Assembly (NCBI RefSeq): GCF_023264895.1
Contig: NZ_JAHFUY010000019.1
Span: 25,013 to 89,012 of the forward strand
Length of the DNA: 64,000 nucleotides
Direction of reading: 5' to 3'
Source of the DNA: Herbiconiux sp.
GTDB lineage: Bacteria; Actinomycetota; Actinomycetes; Actinomycetales; Microbacteriaceae
Part shown: piece by piece, positions 51,721 to 64,000 of the stretch
Position numbering within the stretch: position 1 is the stretch's first letter
Layout: each line of letters begins with the position of its first letter
Program-made: the position numbers and the translations under genes
Notes under the pieces: generated by a model
The model's input: only the letters and a program-made list of their open reading frames with translations
Told to the model about the DNA's origin: nothing
Database searches by the model: none

Positions 51721-52814
51721 CCGGAGACCGCGGGGAGCCAATCCGCCACGACCACGTCGGAGAGCTCGAGGCTCGGCTCGGCGGCACGCAGCTCGGTGAC
51801 GTTGGTGACCTCGTTCTCGGCGAGGAAGTCCTGCGTGATCGTGATCGCCGGGAAGAGCACCTCGGTCTCGTCGAGCTCACCCGCGAGGCTGAGGGCCAGC
51901 GTGCGCACGACCGCGGCGCCCACGGCGGCCGGGTCGGTGGCCGAGGTGGCGACCCAGGGGCTGCCCTCCGCGTTCATGACCTCGAGGTCGGCGTTGGAGA
52001 TGTCGATCCCGTACACCTTCACCTTGTCCTGGAGGTTGTTCTGCTGCACAGCCAGAACTGTACCCTTCGTGATCTCGTCGTAGGGGGCGAAGATCGCCTG
52101 CACATCCGGGTTCTGCTTGAGCGCCGCGTCGACCAGCGGCACGTTGTCGCTCGCCGTGGAGTCGGAGACCTCACCGGTGGAGAACACGACGTCGAGGTCG
52201 TTGTCGGCCACGACCTGATCCCACACCTCGGCACGGCGGTCGAGCGGGGCGAAGCCGGTGGCCGAGACGTAGCCGACCTTGGCGCCCTCGCCGACATCGG
52301 CGATGAGCTGCTCGAGCACGCCCTCGGCCATCGACTTGTCGGACTGCGCGGTGACGATGACGCCCTCGCTGTCGGTGAGCGCGAGGTCGTAGATGACCAC
52401 GGGGATGCCGGCCTCGACGGCCTTCGTGACGAGGGGCTGGATGGTGTCGGTCTGCCCGTGGTCGACGATGATGGCGTCGGGCTTCGAGGCGATGGCCTGC
52501 TCGAGGTCGCTCGCGTGCTTGGCGTTGTCGTTGCGCGCATCCGTGACCTGCAGGTCGATGTTCGCGAAGGAGGCCTGCGCCTCGGCCCCGGCGCCCCAGG
52601 CCTCGAAGAAGTCGCCGGCACCGCTCTGGCGAACGACGGCCACGGTGACGGGGTCGGCGTCGAAGGGCGCGGGCAGCTCGGCCGAGGCGGTGGGCGCGGT
52701 GCTCGCACCGGTGGTGGCGGCGGGGCTGCCGCTGGACTGCGCGCAGCCGGTGACGGCGAGGGCGCCGGCGGCGACGAGGGCGGTGACGACCGCTGCTCTG
52801 CGGAGGATGGCCAT
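51717..52814 (-). CDS. ABC transporter substrate-binding lipoprotein (ribose-type); predicted ligand is 5-methylthioribose or a related 5-deoxypentose
   Basis: AAGGAG ribosome-binding site, lipobox AVTGC and a type I binding-protein pattern. The ligand is inferred only from operon context with mtnK. Confidence 0.85.
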   Translation of the reverse strand: MAILRRAAVVTALVAAGALAVTGCAQSSGSPAATTGASTAPTASAELPAPFDADPVTVAVVRQSGAGDFFEAWGAGAEAQASFANIDLQVTDARNDNAKHASDLEQAIASKPDAIIVDHGQTDTIQPLVTKAVEAGIPVVIYDLALTDSEGVIVTAQSDKSMAEGVLEQLIADVGEGAKVGYVSATGFAPLDRRAEVWDQVVADNDLDVVFSTGEVSDSTASDNVPLVDAALKQNPDVQAIFAPYDEITKGTVLAVQQNNLQDKVKVYGIDISNADLEVMNAEGSPWVATSATDPAAVGAAVVRTLALSLAGELDETEVLFPAITITQDFLAENEVTNVTELRAAEPSLELSDVVVADWLPAVSG

Positions 52815-52992: not shown

Positions 52993-53568
52993 ATGACCCT
53001 CCTGACCGTGTGGAACGACAACGACCCCTCGACGCCCGAGCTGCAGACTCGCGACTTCGACACCATCCATGACGTGCTGGCCGGCCTCGGCGCCCGCTTC
53101 AGCCGATGGGAGCTCAAGGAGCTGCCCGAGAACGCCACGCAGGAGCAGGTGCTCGAGCTCTACCGCGCCGAGATCGACGCCGTGAACGCCGAGCACGGCT
53201 ACACCCTCGTCGACGTGGTGACGATCGAGCGGGAGGACACCGAGGAGTACCGTGCGCAGGCCGATGCCGCGCGCCAGAAGTTCCTCAACGAGCACCAGCA
53301 CGACGACGACGAGGACCGCTTCTTCGCGAGCGGATCCGGTGTCTTCTACCTGCACGTCGGCGGCAAGGTGCACGCCGTGTTCTGCGAGGCCGGAGACCTG
53401 CTCTCGGTGCCGAAGGACACGACGCACTGGTTCGACATGGGCACGAACCCCGAGTACGTCTCGGTGCGCTTCTTCCACGACGACGACGGCTGGGTGGGCA
53501 ACTTCACCGGCAGCGACGTCTCGAGCCGCTTCGCCACCTACGACGAGCTGGCCTCGGTCTCGGCCTAG
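52993..53568 (+). CDS. mtnD: acireductone dioxygenase (ARD)
   Basis: Shows the cupin metal motif EHQHDDDEDRFF and THWFDMG. 191 aa. Confidence 0.85.
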   Translation: MTLLTVWNDNDPSTPELQTRDFDTIHDVLAGLGARFSRWELKELPENATQEQVLELYRAEIDAVNAEHGYTLVDVVTIEREDTEEYRAQADAARQKFLNEHQHDDDEDRFFASGSGVFYLHVGGKVHAVFCEAGDLLSVPKDTTHWFDMGTNPEYVSVRFFHDDDGWVGNFTGSDVSSRFATYDELASVSA

Positions 53569-53650: not shown

Positions 53651-54874
53651 TCAGCCCAGGGAGGCGCCGAAGAGGAGGCCCAGGAGGTAGGTGACGGCCG
53701 CGGCGCCGTAGCCGATCGCGAGCTGGCGGAGGGCTCTGCGAAGGGGCGGGCCGCCCGAGAGCAGGCCCACCACGGCTCCCGTGCCGAGCAGGGCGAGGCC
53801 CACGAGAGCGGATGCCACGAGCACCGCGGGCAGGCCGGTCAGCCCGAACAGGTAGGGCAGCACCGGGATGATCGCCCCCGACGCGAAGAAGCAGAACGAC
53901 GAGAACGCGGCCTGCCAGGCGGTGCCGATCTCCTCGTGCTCGTCGGAGGCGAGGCTGAGGGAGCCCGTGCCCGTGCCGAGCGCACCTCCGCCTCCGGCCG
54001 GCCCCTCGCTCCCCGGGGCCGTGACGCCGGCGTCGCCCGCCCGCGGCAGCCGGATGGCCGAGGTCGCGGTCGTGAGACCGCCGAAGACGTCGAGCGCTCG
54101 CGCCTCCGCCGCCTCCTGGCTCATGCCGCGCGCCCGGTAGACGAGGGCGAGCTCGTTGGCGTCGACGTCGAGCAGCGGTACCGCCGTGCTCGCCGAGGGG
54201 TCGGGCGTCGACGCGGCCAGCAGCTCCCGCTGGGAGCGCACCGACACGAACTCGCCCGCGCCCATCGAGAGCGCGCCCGCGAGGAGGCCCGCCACCCCCG
54301 TGGCGAGCACGACGCTCGCGGGCACGCCCGTGGCGCCGATGCCGAGCACGAGGGCGAGGTTGGAGACGAGTCCGTCGTTGGCGCCGAAGACCGCTGCCCG
54401 GAAGGTGCCCGAGAGGCGGCTGCGGCCCTTCGCGGCCAGCCCGCGCACGACCTCGCCGTGGATGCGTTCGTCGGCCGCCATCGCAGCGGTCGCGTCGTCG
54501 TCGGTGTCGTAGGGCGAGCGGGCCTCGGCGCGCTGCATGAGGGCGAGCACGAACACCGACCCGAAGCGCCGGGCGAAGACGCCGAGCAGACGCGTGCGGA
54601 TGTCGGCGCGGCGGGGCTTGCCCACGTCGTCGCCGAGGAGCTCCAGCCAGTGCGACTCGTGCCGCCCCTCCGCGTCGGCGAGCGCCTCGAGGATGGCGCG
54701 CTCGGAGCCCGTGCGCCGCTGCGCCAGCTCGCGGTACACCTGGGCCTCGGCGCGCTCGTCGGCGAGGTACTGCCGCCACCGGCGGAGGTCGGCGGGCGTC
54801 GGCCCGGAGGCAGACGAGGGCCCGGAAGCGCGCGAGGGCCCGGAAGCGGGCGCGGAGGAAGAAGGAGACGTCAT
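53651..54874 (-). CDS. ferritin-like domain fused to VIT1/CCC1 family iron/manganese transporter
   Basis: Ferritin-like part: ERAEAQVYRELA...EGRHESHW. VIT part: FGANDGLVSNLALVLGI and C-terminal transmembrane segments. Confidence 0.85.
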   Translation of the reverse strand: MTSPSSSAPASGPSRASGPSSASGPTPADLRRWRQYLADERAEAQVYRELAQRRTGSERAILEALADAEGRHESHWLELLGDDVGKPRRADIRTRLLGVFARRFGSVFVLALMQRAEARSPYDTDDDATAAMAADERIHGEVVRGLAAKGRSRLSGTFRAAVFGANDGLVSNLALVLGIGATGVPASVVLATGVAGLLAGALSMGAGEFVSVRSQRELLAASTPDPSASTAVPLLDVDANELALVYRARGMSQEAAEARALDVFGGLTTATSAIRLPRAGDAGVTAPGSEGPAGGGGALGTGTGSLSLASDEHEEIGTAWQAAFSSFCFFASGAIIPVLPYLFGLTGLPAVLVASALVGLALLGTGAVVGLLSGGPPLRRALRQLAIGYGAAAVTYLLGLLFGASLG

Positions 54875-55014
54875 GGGGATCCCCACCATCCTGGCAGTCT
54901 CCGTGCACCCCTCAGGCCCCGGATGCCGCGACTCCCAGAATTTCGAGCTCCCGAAACGACCTCACCCGGGCCCCGCGCCAGTCCGGGCCACCCGCCCCTC
55001 GGCACCCCCGGCCA

Positions 55015-55071
55015 CGAACCGGCAGTTCGTCCCGCTCAGCGCGCTCCAAAGCGGGACGAACTGCCGGTTCG
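55015..55071. terminator. 22-bp perfect inverted repeat (CGAACCGGCAGTTCGTCCCGCT / AGCGGGACGAACTGCCGGTTCG, 13-nt loop)
   Basis: Read directly. Lies 48 nt downstream of the last gene of the Ter-linked operon on the minus strand. Confidence 0.5.
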
Positions 55072-55118: not shown

Positions 55119-55922
55119 CTACGCGCGGGCCGCGGCCTGCAGGAGGTGCAGCAGCTCCTCGCCTGCGAGGATGCCGCGGAGGGTCGTCACCTCGAGGTTG
55201 CCCGCCCGGTACTCCGCATCGTGGAGCTCGCCGTGTGCGGGGCGGAAGGCGGCATCCGCACCCTCGAGCATGGGCTGGTCGAGCAGCGAGTCGCCCGCCG
55301 CCAGGATGCACGGGCCACCGAGCCGCCTCGCGACCTCGGTGACCGCCTCGCGCTTCGTGAGCACCTTCGGCACGCAGTAGAGCTTCCGCCCCTGCACCGA
55401 GACCGACCAGCCGAACGCCTCGCAGGTGAGCCGCAGCTCCTCGAGCCACTCGCCCGGCATGAGGTCGCGGTCGACGATCGAGTAGACGAAGAGGTCGTCG
55501 GCGATGTTGGTCTTGAGGATCCAGGCCGCCGCCGCGAGGTCGCCGAAGAGCGCGTGCACCTCGGCGAGCGGCGCGCTCTCGGCCGCGAGCCGTGCCCGCA
55601 CGCCGTCGCCCCAGTCGGCGTCGCGCTCGCCGTCGACGAGGATCTCGCCGCCGTTGCTCGTGACCGCGAACCGGGGTGCGGCGCCGAGCTGCACGCGCCG
55701 GTACTGCGCGATGGTGCGGGTGGTCACGGGCACGAACTCCGCCTCCTCGCGGAGAGCGGCGAGGAGGCGCTCGGACTCGCGCGTCATGAACGAGATCGGC
55801 ACCCCGTTCCAGAGCTCGGAGACCACGATCGACGGCGCGAGGTCGTCCGGCGTCTCGAGCCAGAAGGCCTTGGGCGAGTAGATGAGCGTGCGGTCGAGGT
55901 CGCACGCGACCAGCGGCCTCAC
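55119..55922 (-). CDS. HAD-superfamily phosphatase (Ter-associated type)
   Basis: Shows VACDLDRTLIY (DxD motif) and ...LAAGDSLLDQPM.... The GTG at 55922 overlaps the upstream stop (GTGA). Confidence 0.8.
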   Translation of the reverse strand: MRPLVACDLDRTLIYSPKAFWLETPDDLAPSIVVSELWNGVPISFMTRESERLLAALREEAEFVPVTTRTIAQYRRVQLGAAPRFAVTSNGGEILVDGERDADWGDGVRARLAAESAPLAEVHALFGDLAAAAWILKTNIADDLFVYSIVDRDLMPGEWLEELRLTCEAFGWSVSVQGRKLYCVPKVLTKREAVTEVARRLGGPCILAAGDSLLDQPMLEGADAAFRPAHGELHDAEYRAGNLEVTTLRGILAGEELLHLLQAAARA

Positions 55923-57076
55923 TGCTCGCTCCCCGCGGGCGCGCCGGCGACCGGGTGGATGAGGCCCACGCAGCTGTACGGCAGCTCCGGCACGTACTCC
56001 ACGGGCACCCCGCGCTGCTCGGCGAGCAGCAGCACGTGGGCCACGTCGTCGAGGGCGTCTGGCCGCACGAGCACCTTCCACGGCACGCGCCGGAGGAGCA
56101 CCCGCGTGGTCTCGCCGACGCCCGGCTTCACGAGGTTGATGCTCTCGATGCCGTAGGCCTGCCGGATGCGCTCGACGGCCTCCCAGCCGGCCCAGGTGGG
56201 CGTGCGGTCCTCGGCGAGGGCGGTCTCGACCTCGCGGGCGACCTCCTCCTGCACGTCGTCGAAGTGCGCGCAGACGGTGTCGAGCAGCTGCTCCGAGACG
56301 TCGTGGCCGGCGAGCTCCCGGTAGAACTTGGCGCCGTGGAACTGGTCGTCGGCGATCAGGTCGCGGTTGTAGACCGTGCGGGAGACGAGGCCGGAGACCG
56401 TCGAGTTGAGGCACGCGGAGGGGATGAGGTAGTCGTCGCGGGTGCCGAAGATGCGCACGCAGTGGCCAGGATCGGCGAGCACCGCGAGGTCGTCGGGAAA
56501 GCGCACGCCCTCGGTCTGCGCGTGCAGCTCGAGCGCGGCGGTGAGCTCGCGCGCGATCGCGCCCTTGCCCGTCCAGCCGTCGACGAAGGCCACCCGGGCG
56601 GGGTCGTGATGGGCGGCGAGATAGCGCAGCGCCGTACGGTCGACCCCCACGCCGCGCACGATGCTCATCGTGTAGTGCGGGGCGTCGACCCCGCGCATCC
56701 GCTTCGCCCAGCGGCGCATCAGGATGCCGATGGGGGTGCCGGCGCGGGCGAGCGAGACGAGCACGGGCGCGTTCCCGCGCTCGGCGAGCACGAGGTCCGT
56801 GACAACACCCACCGCCACCGCGAGGCGCCGGCTCGAGCGGGCGAGAGCGTCGCGGTAGAGCTCCTCGTACTCGGGCGAGGGCAGGTACTCGATCGGCAGC
56901 GATTCGGCGTAGTGCGCCTGACCGCTCTGGATGGCCTGCTCGCGCTCGGCGGCGGGCGCCTCGAGCACGGTGTCGCCGAGGTCGGTGAGCAGCCACTCGA
57001 CGTCGTCGGCCGAGTAGGAGCCGAAGGCCGGGCCGGTGAGCGGCTGGGGGAGGGCCGGTGCGGGGGCATCGGTCAT
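55919..57076 (-). CDS. Ter-associated phosphoribosyltransferase-like protein (PRTase_1 type; I believe NCBI labels this family cysteine protease StiP)
   Basis: Shows a PRPP-loop-like motif RVAFVDGWTGKGAI. The ATG at 57076 overlaps the upstream stop (ATGA). The family name is recalled from memory and was not searched. Confidence 0.7.
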   Translation of the reverse strand: MTDAPAPALPQPLTGPAFGSYSADDVEWLLTDLGDTVLEAPAAEREQAIQSGQAHYAESLPIEYLPSPEYEELYRDALARSSRRLAVAVGVVTDLVLAERGNAPVLVSLARAGTPIGILMRRWAKRMRGVDAPHYTMSIVRGVGVDRTALRYLAAHHDPARVAFVDGWTGKGAIARELTAALELHAQTEGVRFPDDLAVLADPGHCVRIFGTRDDYLIPSACLNSTVSGLVSRTVYNRDLIADDQFHGAKFYRELAGHDVSEQLLDTVCAHFDDVQEEVAREVETALAEDRTPTWAGWEAVERIRQAYGIESINLVKPGVGETTRVLLRRVPWKVLVRPDALDDVAHVLLLAEQRGVPVEYVPELPYSCVGLIHPVAGAPAGSEQ

Positions 57077-58722
57077 GCGGAGGTGGTCCGTTCGTTCGGG
57101 CGGTCGAGGGCGTAGGGACGGGTGGGATGCTGCACGGCGGATGCGGATGCGGCGGGTGCGGTGGATGTGCCGGACGCGGATGCGGGTGCGGCGGGCCGGC
57201 TCTCGGGCAGGAGGGCCACCACCACGCGGTCGGTGACCCGGCGGAGGGCCTCCACGGCGCCACCGGGGGCGAGGAGCAGCTCGCGGTCGACCCCGGGCTC
57301 CGGGAAGAGCACGATGGCGCCGAAGCGCGTGCCGGCGCGGGTGAGGTTGTAGGCGAAGCGGGGGCCGGGGCCGTCGAGCGTCGCGTCGTGGCTCGTGAAG
57401 GCGATGGCCGACGCGATGGCGTAGTCGGGGCGGTCGGTCGCGGCGATGGGGGAGCGGGTGGTGGTGGAGAAGCGCACCCCGCCCACCAGGCGGTCGAGCT
57501 CGGCGGCCACGGTGAGCGGCACCGCGATGAACTCCTCCGAGCCGACCACGAGCACAGTGGTCACATCGGCATCGCCACCCGCACCCGGCAGGGCCGAGCG
57601 GATGCGCCGTGCGACATCTGCAGCGAAGGCGGTGTCGAGGCGGCCGTCGACCCCGAATCGCGCACTCCGCACCGGTGCGACGTCGAGCTCCAGCGTCACG
57701 ACCTCACCGAACGCCATCGCCGCCGCATCCGCATCCGCCGCCGCATCCGCATCCGGGACCGGCGACAGCGCCGGCAGCGCGTCGATCACCGCACGGGCAC
57801 GCTGCAGCACATCCGCCGGCAGCGCGATCGAGCCGACCCCCAGCGCCACGACCGTGATGCGGGTGCCGAGCTCCGCGGCGAGCCCGTCCAGGGCGGCGCG
57901 GTCGGCCGCCGAGCGCAGGTCGATGAGCGAGGCCACCACCCAGTGCTCCTGCGGGGAGTCGTGGTGGAGCGCGGTGATCGTGTTGCGCACCGTGCGGCCC
58001 GTGCTCAGCTCGTCGTCGACGAGCACGGTCGTGCCGCCGGCCGGCAGCCACGACGCACCCGTGCCGAAGCGAGCGGGGTCGGGATAGAGCCGGTGGTCGC
58101 TCGCGTGCGAGTGCTCCTCCTCGAACGCGGTGAAGTGCGCGCCGGGCACGTCGTGCCGGGTGGAGTGCAGGTAGGGCGAGCCGAGGGCGTCGCCCACGAG
58201 GTGCCCGAGCCCGGTGGCGGTCTCGGCGTAGCCGATCGTCACGACCTCCGGATGCGACGTGCCGGCTCCCGCGCGGTGCAGCAGTTCGACGAGGCCGTCG
58301 AGCTCGGCCCGCTCGTCGGCGCTCAGGGGGCCGGTGGAGGCGAGCAGGCGGCCGAACGTCTCGAAGGGAGTCGGGTCGAGCGGATCCCGAGCCGCCTCGA
58401 CAACCCCCGCACCGGTCCCTTCGACCTCCGTCCGCACGAGCAGCCCCAGCAGCCCGCCCGCCGCGACCGCGAGCCCCGGCACGGTCGGCACGTGCTTGGC
58501 CAGGACCGTCGACACGAGCAGCTGCGCCCGCTTGGGGTTGTCTCGGAGCGCGAGCCCCACGAGCGCCTCGAGCGGAACGAGGCTCCGCGACGCATCCGTC
58601 TGCACCGAGATGCCCACGGCCTCCTGCACGAAACCACCGGTCCAGACGCGGCTACGCGCATCCGCGTGCGCATCCGCACTCGCCTCCGCATCCGGAGCCG
58701 GCAGGCCGGGCAGACGGCTCAC
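57073..58722 (-). CDS. phosphoribosyltransferase domain protein with C-terminal extension (PRTase_2 + TRSP-like architecture)
   Basis: Classic PRPP-binding motif TTVLVDDELSTGRTV. The GTG at 58722 overlaps the upstream stop (GTGA). The ORF-track start at 59136 lies inside the lyase gene. Confidence 0.8.
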   Translation of the reverse strand: MSRLPGLPAPDAEASADAHADARSRVWTGGFVQEAVGISVQTDASRSLVPLEALVGLALRDNPKRAQLLVSTVLAKHVPTVPGLAVAAGGLLGLLVRTEVEGTGAGVVEAARDPLDPTPFETFGRLLASTGPLSADERAELDGLVELLHRAGAGTSHPEVVTIGYAETATGLGHLVGDALGSPYLHSTRHDVPGAHFTAFEEEHSHASDHRLYPDPARFGTGASWLPAGGTTVLVDDELSTGRTVRNTITALHHDSPQEHWVVASLIDLRSAADRAALDGLAAELGTRITVVALGVGSIALPADVLQRARAVIDALPALSPVPDADAAADADAAAMAFGEVVTLELDVAPVRSARFGVDGRLDTAFAADVARRIRSALPGAGGDADVTTVLVVGSEEFIAVPLTVAAELDRLVGGVRFSTTTRSPIAATDRPDYAIASAIAFTSHDATLDGPGPRFAYNLTRAGTRFGAIVLFPEPGVDRELLLAPGGAVEALRRVTDRVVVALLPESRPAAPASASGTSTAPAASASAVQHPTRPYALDRPNERTTSA

Positions 58723-59912
58723 CGCATGCTCGTCTCGAGGAGGTCGACGAAGGTGGTCTCCTCGGCGGCGACCCCGAAGGCCTCGGCCCGCAGCAGCGTC
58801 TTGCGGGCCCACGCCTGGTGCGGCTTCATCTCGTTCATCTTGTTGCGGTACGGCGACGCGGTGGCCCCGCCACCCGGGCCGTCGGCGATCGCCAGCGCGT
58901 CGAGGTACTCCTCGTGGCTGACCACCGAGAGCGCGTGCACGACCGGCACATGGGTGGGGTGGATGACCGTCTTGCCGAGCAGCCCGTTGGCCTGGTCGAG
59001 CGAGATCTCGCGGATGAGCCCGTCGAGGCCGGCGAGCACGAGCCGCTGCCGCAGCTTCTTCTCGTTGGCCTCGGCGAACGGTGTCATGCGGAGCTGTGGT
59101 CGCAGCAGGCGCTCGGCGGTCTGGAAGTGCTCCCACACGGGCCCCGTGATCACGAAGTCGTCGGCGGGCCGGCCGAACACGTTCACGATCTCGGCGATCA
59201 CGAACGACACGAGCGTGACGTCGTAGACCGTGAGGTCGCGGGAGCGCCGGAGCCCGAACGCGCTCGAGAGGTCGGTGGCGCCGATCCGCACCGCGAGCAC
59301 GTCGTCGCGGTGCGCCTTCGTGACGTCGACGATGCCCTGCATCGCGCGGTCGCGGGTCTCGGCGTGGATCATGGCGGGCGACTCGAGGATCGGCATGACC
59401 CTCAGCCGCCGCCCGCCGCTCTCACCCGACTGGCCGAACTCGGCGTGGATGTCGTGCAGCGCGTCGAAGAACTCCTGCGCGTAGCCGTCCTCGTTCTGGT
59501 ACTTCGGGATGACGAAGCCGCTCAGCAGGTCGAGACCGGCTCCGCAGAGATCGGCCATCCGCCGCATCTGGTCGGCCGATCGCACCCGGATGAACAGCAG
59601 GGGCAGCACGGGCGGCTCGTCGCTCGCCGCGAGCCGGGCGAGCACCGAGAGGGCCGCGGCCACGTTGGCCTCGGCGAACTCCACCACGTCGTCGGCGATC
59701 GAGTCCTCGAGGCAGAGCACCATGCTGAAGCAGCCGTAGGCGCCCTGCTTGACGACGTCGGCGACGAGGGTGGGCCGGGTGCCCGGGCTGTAGAGCGTGC
59801 CGCCGAGGGCGGAGGCGAGCAGCGCCGGAGGCGAGTCGACCTGGAGGTCGGCGGGCTGGCGGTGGAAGAGGCGGGCTGTCTCGTCCGGGTCGACGAAGCT
59901 GAAGTGGCGCAC
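58719..59912 (-). CDS. HpcH/HpaI aldolase / citrate-lyase-beta-like TIM-barrel C-C bond lyase (Ter-associated type)
   Basis: Shows LCLEDS, ILESPAMI and RIGATDLS, resembling CitE/HpcH active-site strands. The GTG start at 59912 lies 1 nt after the upstream stop. Confidence 0.75.
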   Translation of the reverse strand: MRHFSFVDPDETARLFHRQPADLQVDSPPALLASALGGTLYSPGTRPTLVADVVKQGAYGCFSMVLCLEDSIADDVVEFAEANVAAALSVLARLAASDEPPVLPLLFIRVRSADQMRRMADLCGAGLDLLSGFVIPKYQNEDGYAQEFFDALHDIHAEFGQSGESGGRRLRVMPILESPAMIHAETRDRAMQGIVDVTKAHRDDVLAVRIGATDLSSAFGLRRSRDLTVYDVTLVSFVIAEIVNVFGRPADDFVITGPVWEHFQTAERLLRPQLRMTPFAEANEKKLRQRLVLAGLDGLIREISLDQANGLLGKTVIHPTHVPVVHALSVVSHEEYLDALAIADGPGGGATASPYRNKMNEMKPHQAWARKTLLRAEAFGVAAEETTFVDLLETSMR

Positions 59913-59913
59913 G

Positions 59914-60738
59914 TCAGCTCGTCCGCGACCGACGAGGTGCCACCGAGGTGGTGGGAACGAAGCCGAACTGACGCAGCACGGCCTCGAGCGGCAGCGGCTC
60001 GTCGAGCGGTTCTGCGCGCAGCTCGAGCACACCGTCGATGCGCAGCAGCGAGAGCACGACCGGATGCGCGGGGTCGCCCGGGTGCACCGTGAAGCTCTCG
60101 TCGTCGAACAGCTGCACGCCGAGAGGGGCGCCGCTGCCCACGAAGAGCGCGCGCCGGAGCGAACGCACGTGCCGGAGGGCGACGACCGCATCGCCCTCGT
60201 CGAAGCCCACGAGGGGACGGTTGCCGGGTGTGACGACGGGTGTGCCCTGGGCGGTACCGTCGAGCGTGAGCGATCCGGTCACGAGATCCGTCGACTCCCA
60301 CGCCGCGGCCGTGGCCCCGGAGACGATGAGGCTGCCGATGGCCGACTGTCGGGCGTCGAGCCGCAGCACGGGCTCGTCGGGGCCCAGCTCGCGCACGTCG
60401 TGGGCCGTGGGCGCGGGGAACGGCTGCGGGCCACGGGGGCGGGTGGTGACGGGGGCTGAGGGTGTAGGGGCGCTGGAGCCGCCGCCCAGATCGAGCCCGA
60501 CCGACGGAGCCGGGCGGCTCGCGGGAACGGGAACGGGAGCAGGAGCGGCAGGAGCGGACCGCCCCCCACCCAGGTCGAGCCCGGTGGAGGCCGGAGCGGA
60601 GGGCGCAGGAGCCGCCGCCGCGGGCACAGGCGGCGCGACACTCGCCGCCGCAGCCGGCTCCGCCACGACCGCACGCGGCTTGAGGCGCCGGCGCATGAAG
60701 ACGAGATCCGCCCGCTCAGGCGAGGTGTTGCGCGGCAC
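59914..60738 (-). CDS. hypothetical protein: Pro/Ala-rich N-terminal region with GLDLGGG(R/S)SAP repeat plus a C-terminal beta-rich domain that looks like a degenerate TerD fold
   Basis: The GTG start lies 3 nt after the TerD stop. The C-terminal ~150 aa align by eye with the TerD strand pattern but lack the acidic Ca-binding GDNxTGxGxGDDE segment. An alternative ATG start lies at 60696. Confidence 0.6.
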   Translation of the reverse strand: MPRNTSPERADLVFMRRRLKPRAVVAEPAAAASVAPPVPAAAAPAPSAPASTGLDLGGGRSAPAAPAPVPVPASRPAPSVGLDLGGGSSAPTPSAPVTTRPRGPQPFPAPTAHDVRELGPDEPVLRLDARQSAIGSLIVSGATAAAWESTDLVTGSLTLDGTAQGTPVVTPGNRPLVGFDEGDAVVALRHVRSLRRALFVGSGAPLGVQLFDDESFTVHPGDPAHPVVLSLLRIDGVLELRAEPLDEPLPLEAVLRQFGFVPTTSVAPRRSRTS

Positions 60739-60741
60739 GGC

Positions 60742-61293
60742 TCAGACGTCGATTCGGAAGTCGGAGGCGATGCCCGCGAGCCCGGACGAGTAGCCCTGCC
60801 CGAGGGCCCGGAACTTCCAGTCGTCGCGGTGCCGGTAGAGCTCGGCGAGCAGGAGCGCGCGCGTGCTGCGTGCCTCGGCCAGCGGCACGTCGAACCGCAC
60901 GAGCTCACGGCCGTCCGGGGTCGACACCTTTACCGAGGCGGAGCGCACGGGCGAGAAGTCACCTGGCCCCCGCACATCCGGATCGACGTAGACGAAGAAC
61001 GCGATCTTCGCGACCTCGGCGGGGATGCGCGAGAGGTCGACGTCGATCTCCTCGTCGTCGGCCTCCGAGGCGAACGACACCGAACCGTCGTCGCTCACGA
61101 TCTGGTTGAAGAACACGAGGTGGTCGTCGCTCAGCGCCTTGCCGTCGTCGCCGCAGAGCACGGCGATCGGCACGAGCTCGGTCTGCGGGCCGCGGCTCGG
61201 GATGATGTCCCAGCTGAAGCCGACCATCACCGAGGTGAGCCCGGGGTTCTCGGCGGTGAGCGCGGCGTTGGCGCCCGCGACGAGCGAGGCCAT
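60742..61293 (-). CDS. TerD family protein (divergent)
   Basis: Shows VGFSWD...LVFFNQ...DDEEIDVDL...LYRHRDDWKFRALGQGYSSGLAGIASDF. The start shares 1 nt with the upstream stop (TGATG). Confidence 0.85.
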   Translation of the reverse strand: MASLVAGANAALTAENPGLTSVMVGFSWDIIPSRGPQTELVPIAVLCGDDGKALSDDHLVFFNQIVSDDGSVSFASEADDEEIDVDLSRIPAEVAKIAFFVYVDPDVRGPGDFSPVRSASVKVSTPDGRELVRFDVPLAEARSTRALLLAELYRHRDDWKFRALGQGYSSGLAGIASDFRIDV

Positions 61294-61871
61294 CAGCGGC
61301 CGCCCAGCACGAGGCCCTCGTCGGGCGTCTGGAACTTGTCGGCGAGGAAGCGGCCGTGGGTGGAGAGCTCGGCGATCGCGCCGATGCGGATCTGGTTGAG
61401 CAGGTCGTGGATCGTCTCCTCGATCAGCTCGAGCTGCCGGGCGAAGAGCTCGGTGCCGCGCGACTCGTCGACCCGGTCGGAGGCGGGCAGCGCGAGGAAG
61501 GCGCGGAGCGGGGTGCTGATGTAGTCGGTGATCATGGCCTCCAGCAGCACGCGCTGCTCGGTCGAGGCATCCTGAGCCGCGATGGTCGCCACGACCACGC
61601 GCAGCAGATCGTCGATCTGCCGGAGGCGGGACGACACGATGGCGGGGAGCTCCCGGCCCGCGCGGCGCTCGAGGTCGCGCAGGTCGTCGAGCTCGCGCGC
61701 GCTGCGCTCGTCGTCGGACTCGTTCGCCGGCGGGCGCGAGCGGCGCACGCCGTCGACACCGGGGGTGCCGGCGGCGAGGGCCTCCGCGTGCTCGTCGCCC
61801 GTGGGCCGCACGTGCTCCGCCGGAGGGGTCGCGCCGTTGAGGATGGAATTGACCAGTCGTCCTAGCGCCAT
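61293..61871 (-). CDS. hypothetical helical protein (192 aa) between TelA and TerD
   Basis: Good coding periodicity and coupling to the downstream TerD. No motif I can assign. No transmembrane segment. Confidence 0.6.
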   Translation of the reverse strand: MALGRLVNSILNGATPPAEHVRPTGDEHAEALAAGTPGVDGVRRSRPPANESDDERSARELDDLRDLERRAGRELPAIVSSRLRQIDDLLRVVVATIAAQDASTEQRVLLEAMITDYISTPLRAFLALPASDRVDESRGTELFARQLELIEETIHDLLNQIRIGAIAELSTHGRFLADKFQTPDEGLVLGGR

Positions 61872-61912
61872 GATCGTCCTTCAGTCGTTCTCGGGATCCA
61901 GCGGGTCGCGGG

Positions 61913-63133
61913 TCAGCGCAGCTCGCCGAGGTCCTTGTTCTCCGACTGGCGGCTGCGCTCGAGGTAGGGCTTCGCGCGCTCGAGGCCCGTCTCGAGGGCG
62001 GTGACCGTGCCCTGCATGTTCTTGGCGGCCTCGGCGCGGAAGGTGTCGATGGCATCCATCGTCTGGAACACGTTGTCGAAGGCCTTCTGCAGGGTCTCGA
62101 CGCTCACGCCCGAGGTGGAGGCCTGCTGGTGGATGCGCGTGGTCTGGTCCTTCAGCATCTCGCTGGTCTGCAGGATCATGTTGTTCGTCGTGGTGTTGAT
62201 GGCGTCGATCTGGTCGAGCACCATCTTCTGGTTCGCGAGCGCCTGGGCCACGATCACGGCCGTGCGGAGCGCGGCGATGGTGGTGGTGCGCGCGCGGTCG
62301 ACACCCTTGATGAGCTCGGTGTTGTTCTTGCGGATCAGGTCCATCGCGAGGTAGCCCTGCACCGAGACGGCGAGCTGGGTCAGGATGTCCTGGTGGCGCT
62401 GGCGCACCGGGAACAGCACGTCGGCCTCGAGCTTCTGCGCCTCCTCGATGCGGCCCGCGGCACGGCTCGCCTCGATCTTCTCGACGCACGCGGCGTCGAG
62501 AGCCTTGGCGAACACCGCGTACTCGCTGAGCTGCTGCATGGTCTCCCAGAGCTGCACCTTCTCGCCGGCGAGCGAGGCGTTGTCCTTCAGCAGCTCGTCC
62601 TGACCGGCCATGAGCGACTTGATGATCTTGTCGAGCTGGGTCTGGGCCGACTCGTACTTCTGGAAGTACTTCGCGAGCTTGTTGCCGCCGGGGATGAAGC
62701 CGAGGATCTTGCGCCCCACGCCGAGGTCGGCCTGGTTGGGCGTGAGGTCTTCGACCGTGCTGCGCAGGTCGCCCAGGGTGGTGGCCACCTTGACCTGGGC
62801 GCTGTCGCCCGAGCGCTTGGCGCCGGCCACCGAGGTGGAGGAGCGCTCGAGCATGCGGCTGGAGTAGCCCGAGGACTGCACCATCTCCTTGCCGCCGATC
62901 TGGGTGATCCCCTCCACCTTCGTGGTGAACTCGGGTGCCCGCGGATCCAGGCTCGCCACCTCGGCGATGAAGGCGCGCGCCTGGGCCTGGATCTCGGTCT
63001 GCCGCTCGACGGGGACCGGCACCATGCCGGGGGCTTCGTCGGCCTTGACGATCTCCGGGGCCTCGGGGGCCTGCAGCACGAGCGAGGCCGCCTGGGTCTC
63101 GTCGGCGCTCGGGGGAGTGAGGGGCGTGCTCAT
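61913..63133 (-). CDS. telA: toxic anion resistance protein TelA family
   Basis: 406 aa, all-helical. Typical TelA stretches (…KYFQKYESAQTQLDKI…, …LAMDLIRKNN…). Start at MSTPLT (63133). Confidence 0.85.
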   Translation of the reverse strand: MSTPLTPPSADETQAASLVLQAPEAPEIVKADEAPGMVPVPVERQTEIQAQARAFIAEVASLDPRAPEFTTKVEGITQIGGKEMVQSSGYSSRMLERSSTSVAGAKRSGDSAQVKVATTLGDLRSTVEDLTPNQADLGVGRKILGFIPGGNKLAKYFQKYESAQTQLDKIIKSLMAGQDELLKDNASLAGEKVQLWETMQQLSEYAVFAKALDAACVEKIEASRAAGRIEEAQKLEADVLFPVRQRHQDILTQLAVSVQGYLAMDLIRKNNTELIKGVDRARTTTIAALRTAVIVAQALANQKMVLDQIDAINTTTNNMILQTSEMLKDQTTRIHQQASTSGVSVETLQKAFDNVFQTMDAIDTFRAEAAKNMQGTVTALETGLERAKPYLERSRQSENKDLGELR

Positions 63134-63191
63134 GGCGATCAGCTGCTCTCGTGTCAGAGGATTCGAAAGAGGGGGTGTCGGGGAGCCCGGA

Positions 63192-63770
63192 TCAGCCGAG
63201 CGGAACGCCGAAGTCGCCCGCGATGCCGGCGAGACCGGTGGTGTAGCCCTGGCCGACGGCCTTGAACTTCCACTCGGCGCCGTTGCGGTAGATCTCGGAG
63301 AAGAGCATCGCCGTCTCGGGAGCCGCGTCTTCACTCAGGTCGAAGCGCACGATCTCCTGGCCGTCCTGGTCGACCACGCGGCAGTAGGCGCCACGCACCT
63401 GGCCGAAGTTCTGGCGGCGCTCGTCGGCCTTGTCGATCGACACCGCGAAGATCACGCGCTCGACGTCGGCCCCGATCGACTGCAGGTCGACCGTGATCTG
63501 CTCGTCGTCTCCGTCGCCCTGGCCCGTGCGGTTGTCACCGAGGTGCACCACGGAGCCGTCGGCCGCGGAGGGCTGGTTGTAGAAGATGAAGTCGGCGCCG
63601 GAGCGCACCTTGCGGTTCGCGCCCACGAGGAGCGCCGACGCGTCGAGGTCGAACTGCTCGCCGCTCGTGGAACGCGGGTCCCAGCCGAGGCCCACGGTCG
63701 CGACCGTGAGGCCGGGGCTGGTCTTGGTGAGAGAGAGGTTGCTGCCCTTTTCGAGGCTGAGTCCTGCCAT
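63192..63770 (-). CDS. terD: TerD family stress protein
   Basis: AAGGAG ribosome-binding site. Shows LSLEKGSNLSLTK...VGLGWD...GDNRTGQGDGDDEQITVDL...NGAEWKFKAVGQGY. Confidence 0.92.
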   Translation of the reverse strand: MAGLSLEKGSNLSLTKTSPGLTVATVGLGWDPRSTSGEQFDLDASALLVGANRKVRSGADFIFYNQPSAADGSVVHLGDNRTGQGDGDDEQITVDLQSIGADVERVIFAVSIDKADERRQNFGQVRGAYCRVVDQDGQEIVRFDLSEDAAPETAMLFSEIYRNGAEWKFKAVGQGYTTGLAGIAGDFGVPLG

Positions 63771-63790
63771 GATGATGCTCCTTCGTCGAG

Positions 63791-64000
63791 TTAGAGAGTC
63801 TGGGCGGCCGGGCCGAGCAGGTCCATGACCGAACGGCCGTTGGCGCGTTCACCGATCGCCTTGAAGCTCCAGCCGGCGCCCTCGCGGGAGACCTTGGACA
63901 TGATCATGGCGGTGTGCGGGCCGGAGTCGGTGAGCTGGTAGCGGGCGACCTCGGGCGAGCCGGGGGTCGAGTCGTCGACCACGCGGCTGAAGGCGTTCTT
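63791..64000 (-). CDS. TerD/TerZ family protein, C-terminal part (5' end lies outside the window)
   Basis: The frame is open to the window end (…KNAFSRVVDDSTPG…REGAGWSFKAIGERANG…). TAA stop at 63791. Confidence 0.8.
   Translation of the reverse strand, partial: KNAFSRVVDDSTPGSPEVARYQLTDSGPHTAMIMSKVSREGAGWSFKAIGERANGRSVMDLLGPAAQTL

What the first reader, a model, noticed from the sequence alone, without database searches (positions are those of the whole stretch)
55119..64000. Ter (TerD/TelA) stress cluster welded to a two-PRTase / C-C lyase / HAD small-molecule module, with two unassigned ORFs
Ten genes lie on the minus strand: TerD(partial), TerD, TelA, a 192-aa unknown, TerD, a 274-aa unknown, a CitE/HpcH-like lyase, PRTase+extension, a second PRTase-like protein and a HAD phosphatase. 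The last six are joined by stop-start overlaps or gaps of 3 nt or less (GTGA at 55919-55922 and 58719-58722, ATGA at 57073-57076, TGATG at 61291-61295), so they are almost certainly made stoichiometrically from one mRNA. From memory, comparative genomics (Anantharaman, Iyer and Aravind, 2012) predicted that this PRTase/lyase/HAD set builds an unknown nucleoside-like metabolite coupled to TerD calcium-binding proteins. To my knowledge the product, its target and the physiological trigger have never been determined experimentally. This version has no TerC, TerB, TerY or ATP-grasp gene in the window, and it has two extra ORFs. That makes it a compact and tractable variant of an essentially uncharacterised system. 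Ter loci have also been linked to phage and colicin resistance in enterobacteria.
Basis: partly seen in the sequence, partly recalled or inferred. Interest (0 to 1): 0.72.

Follow-up and report, generated by a model that had tools for sequence, protein, structure and literature searches.

The report
Ter stress operon with unnamed triad
This is the larger part of an ordinary, widely conserved actinobacterial "tellurite-resistance" (Ter) stress operon whose four enzymes are predicted to make an unidentified nucleoside-like molecule, and its only new feature is a conserved trio of genes: two unnamed proteins flanking a TerD copy that has lost its calcium-binding motifs.

Summary
Ten co-directional genes lie at the stated coordinates and every stop-start junction is as described. 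Pfam places them in TerD (four copies), TelA, C-C_Bond_Lyase, PRTase_2+TRSP and PF11202+PELOTA_1. PF11202 is the former PRTase_1, now named "StiP cysteine protease". The last gene is a HAD-IIB phosphatase with intact catalytic motifs.

The claim of a compact, TerC-less variant fails. The source contig differs from the window at 3 of 14,087 bases. It carries terC 515 nt beyond the window edge on the same strand, followed by a divergent marR.

The gene order recurs unchanged in 58 of 58 complete Micrococcales loci, so the locus is not special.

The two "unassigned ORFs" are real and conserved. Together with the TerD between them they form a translationally coupled triad:
- X, a helical bundle.
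- TerD*, which lacks both canonical Ca2+ motifs in 66 of 66 copies.
- Y, with a basic N-terminal peptide, GLxL-motif repeats and a beta domain with no relative found in PDB or BFVD.

The triad also occurs in distant lineages of 40-65% GC. It is absent from the Nocardia, Rhodococcus and Bacillales versions, one of which has TerB instead.

The product and the trigger remain unknown. Verdict: a new variant of a known kind, of moderate interest.

The parts
63791..64000 (-). C-terminal 69 codons of the first TerD (TerD1), cut by the window edge. The full gene would span 63791-64384 in window-equivalent coordinates.
   Evidence: Pfam TerD 5.5e-9 on the fragment. The full 197-aa gene is labelled TerD in source contig L081. 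Coordinates were mapped.
63192..63770 (-). TerD2, a canonical TerD (192 aa) with both Ca2+-site motifs (DLDASA and GDNRTGQGDGDDE).
   Evidence: Pfam TerD 3.1e-77. Motifs are visible in alignment A4.
61913..63133 (-). TelA (406 aa), a toxic-anion-resistance family protein with a conserved N-terminal tail (PLTPP...ALVLxAPDAP...APGMVPVP).
   Evidence: Pfam TelA 1.2e-88. N-terminal conservation was seen in 15 orthologues.
61293..61871 (-). X, an unnamed 192-aa protein. It has a disordered N-terminus and a five-helix bundle (residues 53-181). Invariant motifs are STEQ (103-106) and ELSTHGRFLxDKF. The C-terminal tail is PDxGLxLGGR. It is the first gene of the triad.
   Evidence: No Pfam, NCBIfam or PADLOC hit. 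145 homologues, all hypothetical. AF2 pLDDT above 90 for the bundle. No PDB relative by fold or sequence. hhalign against TerB gave probability 0.2%. Present in every complete Micrococcales locus.
60742..61293 (-). TerD*, a 183-aa TerD paralogue without the canonical Ca2+-site motifs. ELVPxA replaces DLDASA, and a 7-residue deletion removes GDNxTGxG. It is the middle gene of the triad.
   Evidence: Pfam TerD 1.6e-44. Alignment A4. 66 of 66 triad-type TerDs lack both motifs, against 201 of 218 other TerDs that have both.
59914..60738 (-). Y, an unnamed 274-aa protein. It has a conserved N-terminal peptide (xLNxSxxRxDxxYLRRRVKP) and a Pro/Ala-rich disordered linker carrying repeated GLxL motifs (two in the window protein). 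Its C-terminal all-beta domain (about 115-260) has invariant W147 E148, G172 N173 R174, R189 H190, R196, E239 R241 and F258. It is the last gene of the triad.
   Evidence: No Pfam, NCBIfam or PADLOC hit. Alignment A1. AF2 pLDDT above 90 for the beta domain. No Foldseek match in PDB or BFVD. hhalign against TerD gave probability 0.3%. 181 clusters at 50% identity in 1.84 billion representatives. Motif present in 35 of 39 linkers against about 0.06 per shuffled linker.
58719..59912 (-). CitE/HpcH-like TIM-barrel C-C bond lyase (397 aa) of the Ter-associated family.
   Evidence: Pfam C-C_Bond_Lyase 3.3e-110. E69, D70 and D214 are invariant in 20 diverse orthologues. Weak malyl-CoA lyase and CitE similarity.
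57073..58722 (-). PRTase_2 + TRSP protein (549 aa), a type-I-like phosphoribosyltransferase with an intact PRPP loop.
   Evidence: Pfam PRTase_2 1.6e-53 and TRSP 3.5e-23. V233-LVDDExxTGxT-244 and T422-R-S-P425 are invariant.
55919..57076 (-). PF11202 (former PRTase_1, now 'StiP') + PELOTA_1 protein (385 aa).
   Evidence: Pfam 3.5e-103 and 2.3e-36. Invariant D166-GWTGKG-172, C222, H134, H247 and C369. Fused to PRTase_2-TRSP in one 823-aa protein in L088.
55119..55922 (-). HAD-IIB-type phosphatase (267 aa), the last gene of the operon.
   Evidence: Trehalose-6-P phosphatase 6cj0, E 2.2e-10 over residues 2-229. Weak HAD-IIB NCBIfam hit. D8xD10xT12, T67-T68, K180 and G210-D211xxxD215 are invariant.
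55013..55071 (-). Near-perfect hairpin with a stem of about 23 bp, starting about 48 nt after the HAD stop codon. It is the probable transcript end.
   Evidence: RNA fold of -61.9 kcal/mol, z = -8.0 against shuffles. Its function as a terminator is inferred.

Best explanation
The region is the 3' ten genes of a chromosomal Ter stress-response operon of a Herbiconiux (Microbacteriaceae). The full operon has eleven genes plus a divergent marR: marR <> terC - terD - terD - telA - X - terD* - Y - lyase - PRTase_2/TRSP - PF11202/PELOTA - HAD.

Shown here:
- The family memberships of the named genes.
- Intact catalytic motifs in the enzymes.
- Translational coupling of the last seven genes.
- Conservation of the whole array across Micrococcales.
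- The X-TerD*-Y triad as a separate conserved unit.

Inferred, following Anantharaman et al. (2012):
- The four enzymes make a small ribosylated product from PRPP. PRTase_2 joins phosphoribose to an unknown acceptor.
- The CitE-like lyase makes or trims a carbon side chain.
- The PF11202/PELOTA protein acts as a second PRTase-like or processing subunit, working with PRTase_2. In some genomes the two are fused.
- The HAD-IIB enzyme removes the 5'-phosphate to release a nucleoside-like molecule.
- TerD proteins (Ca2+-binding), TelA (sub-membrane) and TerC (membrane, cation transport) form the response arm.

My own inference concerns the triad. It is the adaptor between the two arms in lineages that lack TerB. 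TerD* has given up Ca2+ binding and serves as a scaffold. X is a helical partner. Y tethers an Arg/His-rich beta domain, a candidate binder of the anionic product or precursor, through a flexible linker studded with GLxL docking motifs.

The confidence of 0.6 is a blend: about 0.95 for the identity of the locus, about 0.5 for the nucleoside-like product and about 0.2-0.25 for the adaptor role of the triad.
For: Identity:
- Pfam and NCBIfam results.
- PDB sequence match for the HAD.
- Invariant catalytic motifs in 20 orthologues spanning Actinomycetota, Bacillales and unclassified lineages of 40-65% GC.

Operon:
- Overlaps and short gaps between genes.
- A strong hairpin after the HAD gene.
- terC and marR in the source contig.

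Conservation:
- 58 of 58 complete Micrococcales loci have the identical order.
- A TerC-family gene heads the array in most of them.

Triad:
- X and Y homologues flank a TerD* in L083, L086, L087 and L088. In L085 the triad occurs without the lyase.
- TerD*-Y junctions overlap or are 3 nt or less apart in all six contexts.
- TerD* lacks both Ca2+ motifs in 66 of 66 copies.
- HMMs find no X or Y in 18 Nocardia, Rhodococcus and Bacillales loci.
- The one Paenibacillus locus examined instead has a TerD-TerB fusion, a TerD-vWA protein and YceG.
- The gene lists of the triad loci carry no TerB label.

Functional link of the two PRTase-like proteins: they are fused in L088.

Pathway model: quoted in PMC7824862 and PMC11994780.
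Against: - No product, substrate or trigger is known for any member of this module, so every chemical step is inference.
- Pfam now describes PF11202 as a cysteine protease (after Reichert et al. 2013, cited). An invariant Cys and invariant His residues exist, so the 'second PRTase' role is contested.
- The adaptor role of the triad rests only on gene order, coupling and complementary distribution with TerB. That distribution was checked by Pfam in just one non-triad locus.
- Y's beta domain could equally be an enzyme.
- Co-transcription from terC to the HAD gene was not shown. Promoter and terminator consensus scans were uninformative in this 72% GC DNA.
- The primary paper (Anantharaman 2012) could not be read. 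I cannot exclude that the triad was already drawn there as unnamed boxes.
Confidence: 0.6

Rival explanations
1. One reading: a compact Ter variant that works without TerC, TerB, TerY or ATP-grasp, and is therefore a minimal and especially tractable system.
For: No TerC, TerB, vWA or YceG homologue lies anywhere in the 64-kb window. No ATP-grasp gene appears in the Pfam-labelled gene lists of the locus.
Against: terC (402 aa, Pfam 1.7e-50) sits on the same strand 515 nt beyond the window edge in a contig that differs from the window at 3 of 14,087 bases. TerC or DUF475-type genes head the array in most related loci. With eleven operon genes plus marR the locus is no smaller than other Ter loci.
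Confidence: 0.03
2. The locus is primarily an anti-phage or anti-invader defence system. The enzymes would make a nucleotide-like alarm signal or toxic nucleoside analogue on infection. TerD, TelA and TerC would then alter the membrane to block entry or abort infection.
For: Iyer et al. 2021 describe the Ter system in these terms and note Ter genes in jumbo phages. Phage and colicin resistance are classic phenotypes of plasmid ter operons (abstract). NERD and restriction-like genes lie near the array in L083 and L087.
Against: No PADLOC model matches any of the nine proteins. The Y domain is absent from IMG/VR contigs. The array is syntenic and apparently vertically inherited across two families of Micrococcales. 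In the window it sits among housekeeping genes (VIT1, ARD, a sugar ABC transporter, acyl-CoA dehydrogenase) with no composition anomaly.
Confidence: 0.2
3. PF11202 is a stress-induced cysteine protease (StiP), not a PRTase. The module would then combine one PRTase pathway with a protease. The substrates of that protease could include the GLxL-studded linker of Y or the tail of X.
For: Pfam's current name and description, and the Acinetobacter baylyi work cited. C222, H134, H247 and C369 are invariant. A repeated short motif in a disordered linker is what a processing site might look like.
Against: The same domain keeps an invariant PRPP-loop-like D-G-W-T-G-K-G. It is always adjacent to PRTase_2, sometimes fused to it, and followed by a phosphatase. 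The protease paper could not be read, so its catalytic residues could not be mapped. No protease family appears in any search.
Confidence: 0.2
4. Y is a biosynthetic enzyme rather than an adaptor or receptor. It would take the place of the ATP-grasp enzyme of the five-gene module and act before the lyase.
For: Y lies one nucleotide upstream of the lyase. It has a constellation of invariant polar residues (W-E, N-R, R-H, R, E-x-R) typical of active sites. No ATP-grasp gene is present.
Against: In L085 the X-TerD*-Y triad occurs without the lyase downstream. Y is always coupled to TerD*, and Nocardia, Rhodococcus and Bacillales run the same four enzymes without any Y. Half of the protein is a disordered linker with docking-type motifs.
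Confidence: 0.15

Closest known systems
Ter-associated biosynthetic module (C-C lyase, PRTase_2-TRSP, PRTase_1/StiP-PELOTA, HAD) defined by Anantharaman, Iyer and Aravind 2012. One example is the four-gene form described next to terD/terC in Bacillus altitudinis 3W19 (PMC11994780).
   Same: The same four Pfam families occur in the same order with intact catalytic motifs, physically linked to TerD, TelA and TerC genes.
   Different: There is no ATP-grasp gene, so this is the four-gene form rather than the five-gene form. There is no TerB. Between telA and the lyase sits the X-TerD*-Y triad, which the Bacillales, Nocardia and Rhodococcus versions lack.
Classical terZABCDEF tellurite-resistance operon of IncHI2 plasmids and E. 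coli O157.
   Same: It has multiple TerD-family paralogues and a TerC membrane protein, and belongs to a general stress, tellurite, phage and colicin resistance context (for the composition of that operon).
   Different: There is no TerB, TerA/Z/E/F naming set or TerF vWA protein. TelA and an enzyme module are present. The locus is chromosomal in a Gram-positive actinobacterium. The tellurite phenotype is untested.
Bacillus yceCDEFGH-type loci (TerD x3, TerC, YceG, TelA/YceH) and the Paenibacillus locus L068.
   Same: It shares the TerD-TerD-TerD plus TelA core with the same enzyme module.
   Different: The Firmicute loci carry YceG, TerD-vWA and TerD-TerB fusion proteins and no X or Y. The Micrococcales loci carry X and Y and none of those.
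TerB (PF05099), the helical protein proposed to link TerD and TerC to the biosynthetic module.
   Same: X is also a small helical-bundle protein encoded next to a TerD. It occurs in loci that have the module but no TerB, which makes it a possible functional analogue.
   Different: No detectable homology was found. There is no Pfam TerB hit in 38 family members at E<=10, hhalign probability is 0.2%, and Foldseek found no match to any PDB chain.

Membership tests
Ter-associated biosynthetic module (Anantharaman et al. 2012) | TIM-barrel C-C bond lyase of family PF15617 | tested here: met
   E 3.3e-110, full-length match. Metal-site E69, D70 and D214 are invariant.
Ter-associated biosynthetic module (Anantharaman et al. 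2012) | PRTase_2 domain followed by a TRSP domain, with a PRPP-binding loop | tested here: met
   PF15609 1.6e-53 and PF12500 3.5e-23. VLVDDExxTGxT and T-R-S-P are invariant.
Ter-associated biosynthetic module (Anantharaman et al. 2012) | PRTase_1 (PF11202) domain followed by PELOTA_1 | tested here: met
   PF11202 3.5e-103 and PF15608 2.3e-36.
Ter-associated biosynthetic module (Anantharaman et al. 2012) | HAD-superfamily phosphatase with catalytic motifs I-IV | tested here: met
   No Pfam hit. However, trehalose-6-P phosphatase matches at E 2e-10, and DxDxT, TT, K and GDxxxD are invariant.
Ter-associated biosynthetic module (Anantharaman et al. 2012) | ATP-grasp amide-bond synthetase (five-gene form only) | tested here: not met
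   No ATP-grasp label appears among the called genes of L081, L083, L087 or L088. This is the four-gene form, as in Bacillus altitudinis.
Ter-associated biosynthetic module (Anantharaman et al. 2012) | Physical linkage to TerD, TelA and TerC genes | tested here: met
   Same strand and the same array in 58 of 58 complete loci. terC is adjacent in the source contig.
Ter-associated biosynthetic module (Anantharaman et al. 2012) | Produces a nucleoside-like metabolite from PRPP | not testable with these tools
   This is a prediction only. No experimental identification was found in the literature searches.
TerD family (PF02342) | TerD domain over its full length | tested here: met
   Three complete copies and one cut copy. 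The full first copy is present in L081.
TerD family (PF02342) | Two Ca2+-site motifs (DLDAS-type and GDNxTGxGDGDDE-type; their role is known from the Klebsiella TerD structure, recalled from memory) | tested here: not met
   The motifs are met for TerD1 and TerD2 but not for the third copy (60742-61293). That copy has ELVPIA and a 7-residue deletion. 66 of 66 orthologues lack both motifs.
TelA (PF05816) | Full-length TelA domain | tested here: met
   E 1.2e-88, profile positions 3-332 of 332.
Classical terZABCDEF operon | TerB and TerC together with TerD paralogues; tellurite resistance | tested here: not met
   TerC is present just outside the window. No TerB lies in the window or in the L081 gene list. 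The phenotype is not testable.
Known anti-phage defence systems (PADLOC-DB 2.0) | Any component matching a defence-system model | tested here: not met
   0 hits for nine proteins at E<=0.01.
StiP cysteine protease (Pfam's description of PF11202) | Catalytic Cys/His and peptidase activity | tested here: inconclusive
   Invariant C222, C369, H134 and H247 exist, but so does a PRPP-loop-like DGWTGKG. The defining paper is not held. Activity is not testable.
TerB (PF05099), considered for X | Sequence or fold similarity to TerB | tested here: not met
   No Pfam hit in 38 members. hhalign probability 0.2%. No Foldseek match.
TerD fold, considered for the beta domain of Y | Profile or fold similarity to TerD | tested here: not met
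   hhalign probability 0.3%. No TerD structure appears among the Foldseek PDB matches; the best E is 0.03 with TM below 0.25.

The most novel reading that the evidence does not exclude
X-TerD*-Y is a previously unnamed three-protein adaptor or receptor unit of Ter systems. In this reading a TerD paralogue that has lost its Ca2+ sites scaffolds a helical partner (X) and a tethered beta domain (Y). The beta domain has no relative among solved or viral structures and would bind the still-unknown nucleoside-like product, or its phosphorylated precursor. The unit would couple the enzyme module to TelA and TerC in lineages that lack TerB. The repeated GLxL motifs in Y's linker resemble the first beta strand of canonical TerD (GLSLEKG) and would dock by strand addition onto TerD-type domains.
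Probability: 0.2. Interest if true: 0.65.

Novelty: new variant of a known kind. Interest (0 to 1): 0.45.

Why it matters
The Ter system is widespread in bacteria, plasmids and some phages. It has been linked to tellurite, oxidant, envelope-antibiotic, colicin and phage resistance. Its mechanism is still unknown, and the small molecule predicted in 2012 has never been identified.

This window does not solve that problem and is not a privileged entry point. The same locus exists in many cultured Arthrobacter, Plantibacter and Curtobacterium strains.

What it adds is a cleaner parts list for the actinobacterial form: an operon of eleven genes with a MarR neighbour. It also adds a conserved triad made of two protein families that no library names and a TerD copy that has lost its calcium-site motifs.

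If the triad is the link between metabolite and membrane response, its beta domain would be a natural bait for fishing out the unknown product. The degenerate TerD would show that not all TerD copies act as calcium binders.

Tried and rejected
- VIT1 (53651-54889) as a TerC substitute: rejected. The adjacency holds only in the two Herbiconiux loci, and terC is present anyway.
- X as a divergent TerB: rejected.
- X as PspAA-like: only 6 of 38 members hit PF22743, best E 0.012. This was not pursued further. A literature search for PspAA and TelA returned only unrelated 'TelA' papers.
- Y's beta domain as TerD-like: rejected.
- Y related to FG-GAP_2 propellers: large FG-GAP proteins match profile positions 30-80 repeatedly. 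This is a local GNRxLxG/SLxxSG motif resemblance in repeat proteins, not a shared domain.
- Defence-system membership: PADLOC gave no hit.
- Phage association of Y: none in IMG/VR. The lyase has one weak hit in an unannotated 'phage' contig.
- Riboswitch or other RNA upstream of terC or inside the operon: Rfam found nothing on the 20-kb source stretch at E<=0.1.
- Sigma-70 promoter and T-tract terminator scans: uninformative in this high-GC DNA.
- Solved-structure relatives by sequence for PRTase_2, the PF11202 domain, the lyase, X and Y: none significant.
- The profile search of X in the 5.8-billion-protein set gave only hypothetical proteins.
- The two key primary papers could not be read: Anantharaman 2012 (PMC4104200) and Reichert 2013 (PMID 24206355). 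Their content is cited only through later papers.

Full report
**1. Observation**

ORF listing and direct translation confirm ten co-directional genes on the minus strand between 55119 and 64000.

- StiP/HAD: GTGA at 55919-55922.
- PRTase_2/StiP: ATGA at 57073-57076.
- Lyase/PRTase_2: GTGA at 58719-58722.
- 274-aa ORF to lyase: a 1-nt gap.
- Third TerD to the 274-aa ORF: a 3-nt gap.
- 192-aa ORF to the third TerD: TGATG at 61291-61295.

Seven genes, not six, are therefore translationally coupled.

Pfam gives the following matches:

| Family | E-value |
|---|---|
| TerD (three complete copies and one cut copy) | 3e-77, 2e-44, 5e-9 |
| TelA | 1e-88 |
| C-C_Bond_Lyase | 3e-110 |
| PRTase_2 + TRSP | 2e-53 / 4e-23 |
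| PF11202 + PELOTA_1 | 4e-103 / 2e-36 |

Pfam now calls it 'StiP, tellurite-like stress resistance cysteine protease', after work in Acinetobacter baylyi (cited).

The last gene hits no Pfam HAD model. It aligns over residues 2-229 with solved trehalose-6-phosphate phosphatases at E 2e-10. It also has weak HAD-IIB NCBIfam hits.

**2. Enzymes look active**

I aligned 20 orthologues from Micrococcales, Nocardia, Rhodococcus, Bacillales and two unclassified metagenomic lineages. The following residues are invariant:
- HAD: D8xD10xT12, T67-T68, K180 and G210-D211xxxD215.
- PRTase_2: the PRPP loop V233-LVDDExxTGxT-244.
- TRSP: T422-R-S-P425.
- Lyase: E69, D70 and D214.
- PF11202 domain: a PRPP-loop-like D166-GWTGKG-172, and also C222, C369, H134 and H247.

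The sequence therefore does not decide between 'second PRTase' and 'cysteine protease' for PF11202.

In one metagenomic locus (L088) the PRTase_2-TRSP and PF11202-PELOTA proteins are fused into a single 823-aa protein. This argues that the two work together.

None of PRTase_2, the PF11202 domain or the lyase has a significant sequence relative among solved structures.

**3. Where the window comes from, and what lies beyond its edge**

A scan of one genome per species with the lyase returned 80 loci. The best is Herbiconiux oxytropis at 98% identity.

A look-up by exact protein found the ENA metagenome contig ERZ27280021:k141_1705069 (L081). It differs from the window at 3 of 14,087 overlapping bases.

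In that contig:
- The cut first TerD is completed at window-equivalent 63791-64384.
- It is preceded on the same strand by a 402-aa TerC (Pfam 1.7e-50) at 64515-65723.
- A divergent MarR regulator lies at 65786-66280.

Nothing else in the window resembles TerC, TerB, the TerF vWA domain or YceG.

Downstream of the HAD gene is a near-perfect hairpin at 55013-55071. It folds at -61.9 kcal/mol with z = -8 and probably ends the transcript.

The next gene, a VIT1-family transporter, is adjacent only in Herbiconiux and is not part of the system.

**4. The locus is common**

tblastn of all the proteins against the 80 loci shows the same order and strand in all 58 Micrococcales loci with enough flanking sequence. 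That order is TerD, TerD, (TerD), TelA, 192-aa, TerD, 274-aa, lyase, PRTase_2, PF11202, HAD. Four further loci are cut contigs.

The taxa are:
- Microbacteriaceae: Herbiconiux, Plantibacter, Subtercola, Frigoribacterium, Frondihabitans, Curtobacterium.
- Micrococcaceae: Arthrobacter, Pseudarthrobacter, Paenarthrobacter, Specibacter.

A TerC-family gene heads the array in most of them. It is classical TerC in 13 loci and a DUF475/TerC type in about 34.

The four-enzyme block alone, in the same order, also occurs in 18 Nocardia, Rhodococcus, Bacillaceae and Paenibacillus loci. It has been described in Bacillus altitudinis.

No PADLOC defence model matches any protein. Rfam finds nothing on the source stretch.

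**5. The two unassigned ORFs**

Both are real and conserved. The 274-aa protein, which I call Y, has 95 homologues. The 192-aa protein, X, has 145. All are annotated as hypothetical and none carries a Pfam label.

*Y has three parts.*
- A conserved N-terminal peptide, xLNxSxxRxDxxYLRRRVKP. It supports the GTG start at 60738 over the shorter database gene call.
- A Pro/Ala-rich disordered linker with repeated short GLxL motifs (two copies in the window protein). The motif is present in 35 of 39 family members, against about 0.06 matches per shuffled linker.
- A C-terminal all-beta domain predicted with pLDDT above 90. It carries invariant W-E, G-N-R, R-H, R and E-x-R residues.

This domain has no relative by any of these tests:
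- Foldseek against PDB or BFVD.
- A PDB sequence profile search.
- Pfam at E<=10.
- hhalign against TerD, probability 0.3%.

*X is a five-helix bundle* with pLDDT above 90. Foldseek finds no informative match. There is no TerB relationship.

**6. A conserved triad**

A profile of Y's beta domain was searched against 1.84 billion representative proteins. It found 181 clusters, 114 of them at E<=1e-10. Distant members of 190-330 aa share the same three-part build.

Gene contexts of five of these members were informative; a sixth look-up (L084) fell on a 1-kb contig with no context. All five show a TerD immediately upstream, either overlapping or 3 nt or less away. An X homologue, with hmmsearch E values from 3e-15 to 3e-46, sits before that TerD.

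Loci L086 (48% GC), L087 (41% GC) and L088 (65% GC) carry TelA, X, TerD and Y in that order; L087 and L088 go on to lyase, PRTase_2, PF11202 and HAD, while L086 ends just after Y. In L085 the triad occurs without a lyase downstream.

HMMs of X and Y find nothing in the 18 Nocardia, Rhodococcus and Bacillales loci.

The TerD inside the triad is a distinct subfamily:
- ELVPxA replaces the DLDASA motif.
- A 7-residue deletion removes GDNxTGxG.
- 66 of 66 triad TerDs lack both motifs, while 201 of 218 other TerDs in the same loci have both.

From memory, these motifs form the Ca2+ sites in the solved Klebsiella TerD structure. The triad TerD has therefore probably lost Ca2+ binding.

The one non-triad locus I annotated is a Paenibacillus locus. 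It has a TerD-TerB fusion, a TerD-vWA protein and YceG instead. None of the triad loci has a TerB label.

Later papers quote Anantharaman et al. as proposing that TerB links TerD and TerC to the enzyme module. The triad may play that part where TerB is missing. This is inference from gene order and distribution only.

**7. Mechanism**

What is shown:
- The family memberships.
- The intact catalytic motifs.
- The translational coupling.
- The conservation of the array.

What follows from the published model:
- PRTase chemistry on PRPP, followed by HAD dephosphorylation, gives a nucleoside-like product.
- TerD, TelA and TerC form the sensing and membrane-response arm.

What is my inference: the triad acts as an adaptor or receptor.

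Rivals:
- A defence function is plausible from the literature but unsupported by PADLOC, by mobility or by the neighbouring genes in this window.
- A protease role for PF11202 cannot be excluded.
- An enzymatic role for Y is made less likely by the lyase-less triad in L085 and by the Y-less modules elsewhere.

**8. Novelty and score**

The Ter cluster and its enzyme module are a known kind, and this instance is an ordinary member. The TerC-less 'compact variant' reading is wrong.

The X-TerD*-Y triad appears to be unnamed. There is no Pfam, NCBIfam or PADLOC model for X or Y, and all source annotations are 'hypothetical'. That makes the Micrococcales form a distinct variant.

I could not read the 2012 paper to check whether the triad was already noticed.

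A specialist would be mildly rather than strongly surprised. The open question of the product is no more testable here than in many cultured strains. Interest: 0.45.

Noticed in passing
window 53651-54889 (-): A 412-aa VIT1-family (Fe/Mn transporter-type) protein with a long N-terminal extension lies directly downstream of the operon's hairpin. The adjacency is conserved only in the two Herbiconiux genomes.
   Followed up: partly
window 52993-53568 (+) and 51717-52814 (-): An ARD/cupin (acireductone dioxygenase-like) gene and the periplasmic binding protein of a sugar ABC transporter flank the Ter region. These are ordinary housekeeping neighbours with no island signature.
   Followed up: no
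L088:5261-7732: PRTase_2-TRSP and PF11202-PELOTA are fused into one 823-aa protein in a 65% GC metagenomic contig. This is a Rosetta-stone link between the two PRTase-like proteins.
   Followed up: partly
window 59914-60738 (linker, residues about 22-104), 61293-61871 (C-terminal tail) and 63192-63770 (N-terminus): The GLxL(G/R) motif repeated in Y's linker also ends X (PDEGLVLGGR). It resembles the first strand of canonical TerD (MAGLSLEKG). TelA orthologues have a conserved ALVLxAP in their N-terminal tail. Whether these are docking motifs for one partner is unknown.
   Followed up: partly
proteins P0300, P0318, P0320 and similar: Large FG-GAP_2 repeat proteins match positions 30-80 of the Y-domain profile many times each, with summed E down to 3e-16. 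This is probably a local motif resemblance (SLSGNRALIGA against TPGNRPLVGF), but it is unexplained.
   Followed up: partly
L041 (JADHDY010000001.1, labelled Sporosarcina beigongshangi): This locus carries the full Arthrobacter-type array and has 66.5% GC, which is far from a Sporosarcina genome. The contig is probably a contaminant or the assembly is mislabelled.
   Followed up: partly
L062:8697-9902 (+), Nocardia acididurans: In Nocardia and Rhodococcus a 401-aa helical protein without any Pfam match sits directly upstream of the lyase, where Micrococcales have the triad. A DUF475/TerC-TerD pair is transcribed divergently. It may be another unnamed accessory protein.
   Followed up: partly
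L083:1-4297 and L087:12917-13678: NERD-domain, bPH and HSDR_N-like genes lie within a few kb of the Ter array in an Arthrobacter genome and in a 41% GC contig. This hints at defence-island neighbourhoods in some lineages, though not in this window.
   Followed up: no
L081:3734-4291 (window-equivalent about 65723-66280): A MarR-family regulator is transcribed divergently from terC with only a 62-nt spacer. It is conserved in the Herbiconiux, Plantibacter and Subtercola loci and is the likely local regulator of the operon.
   Followed up: partly
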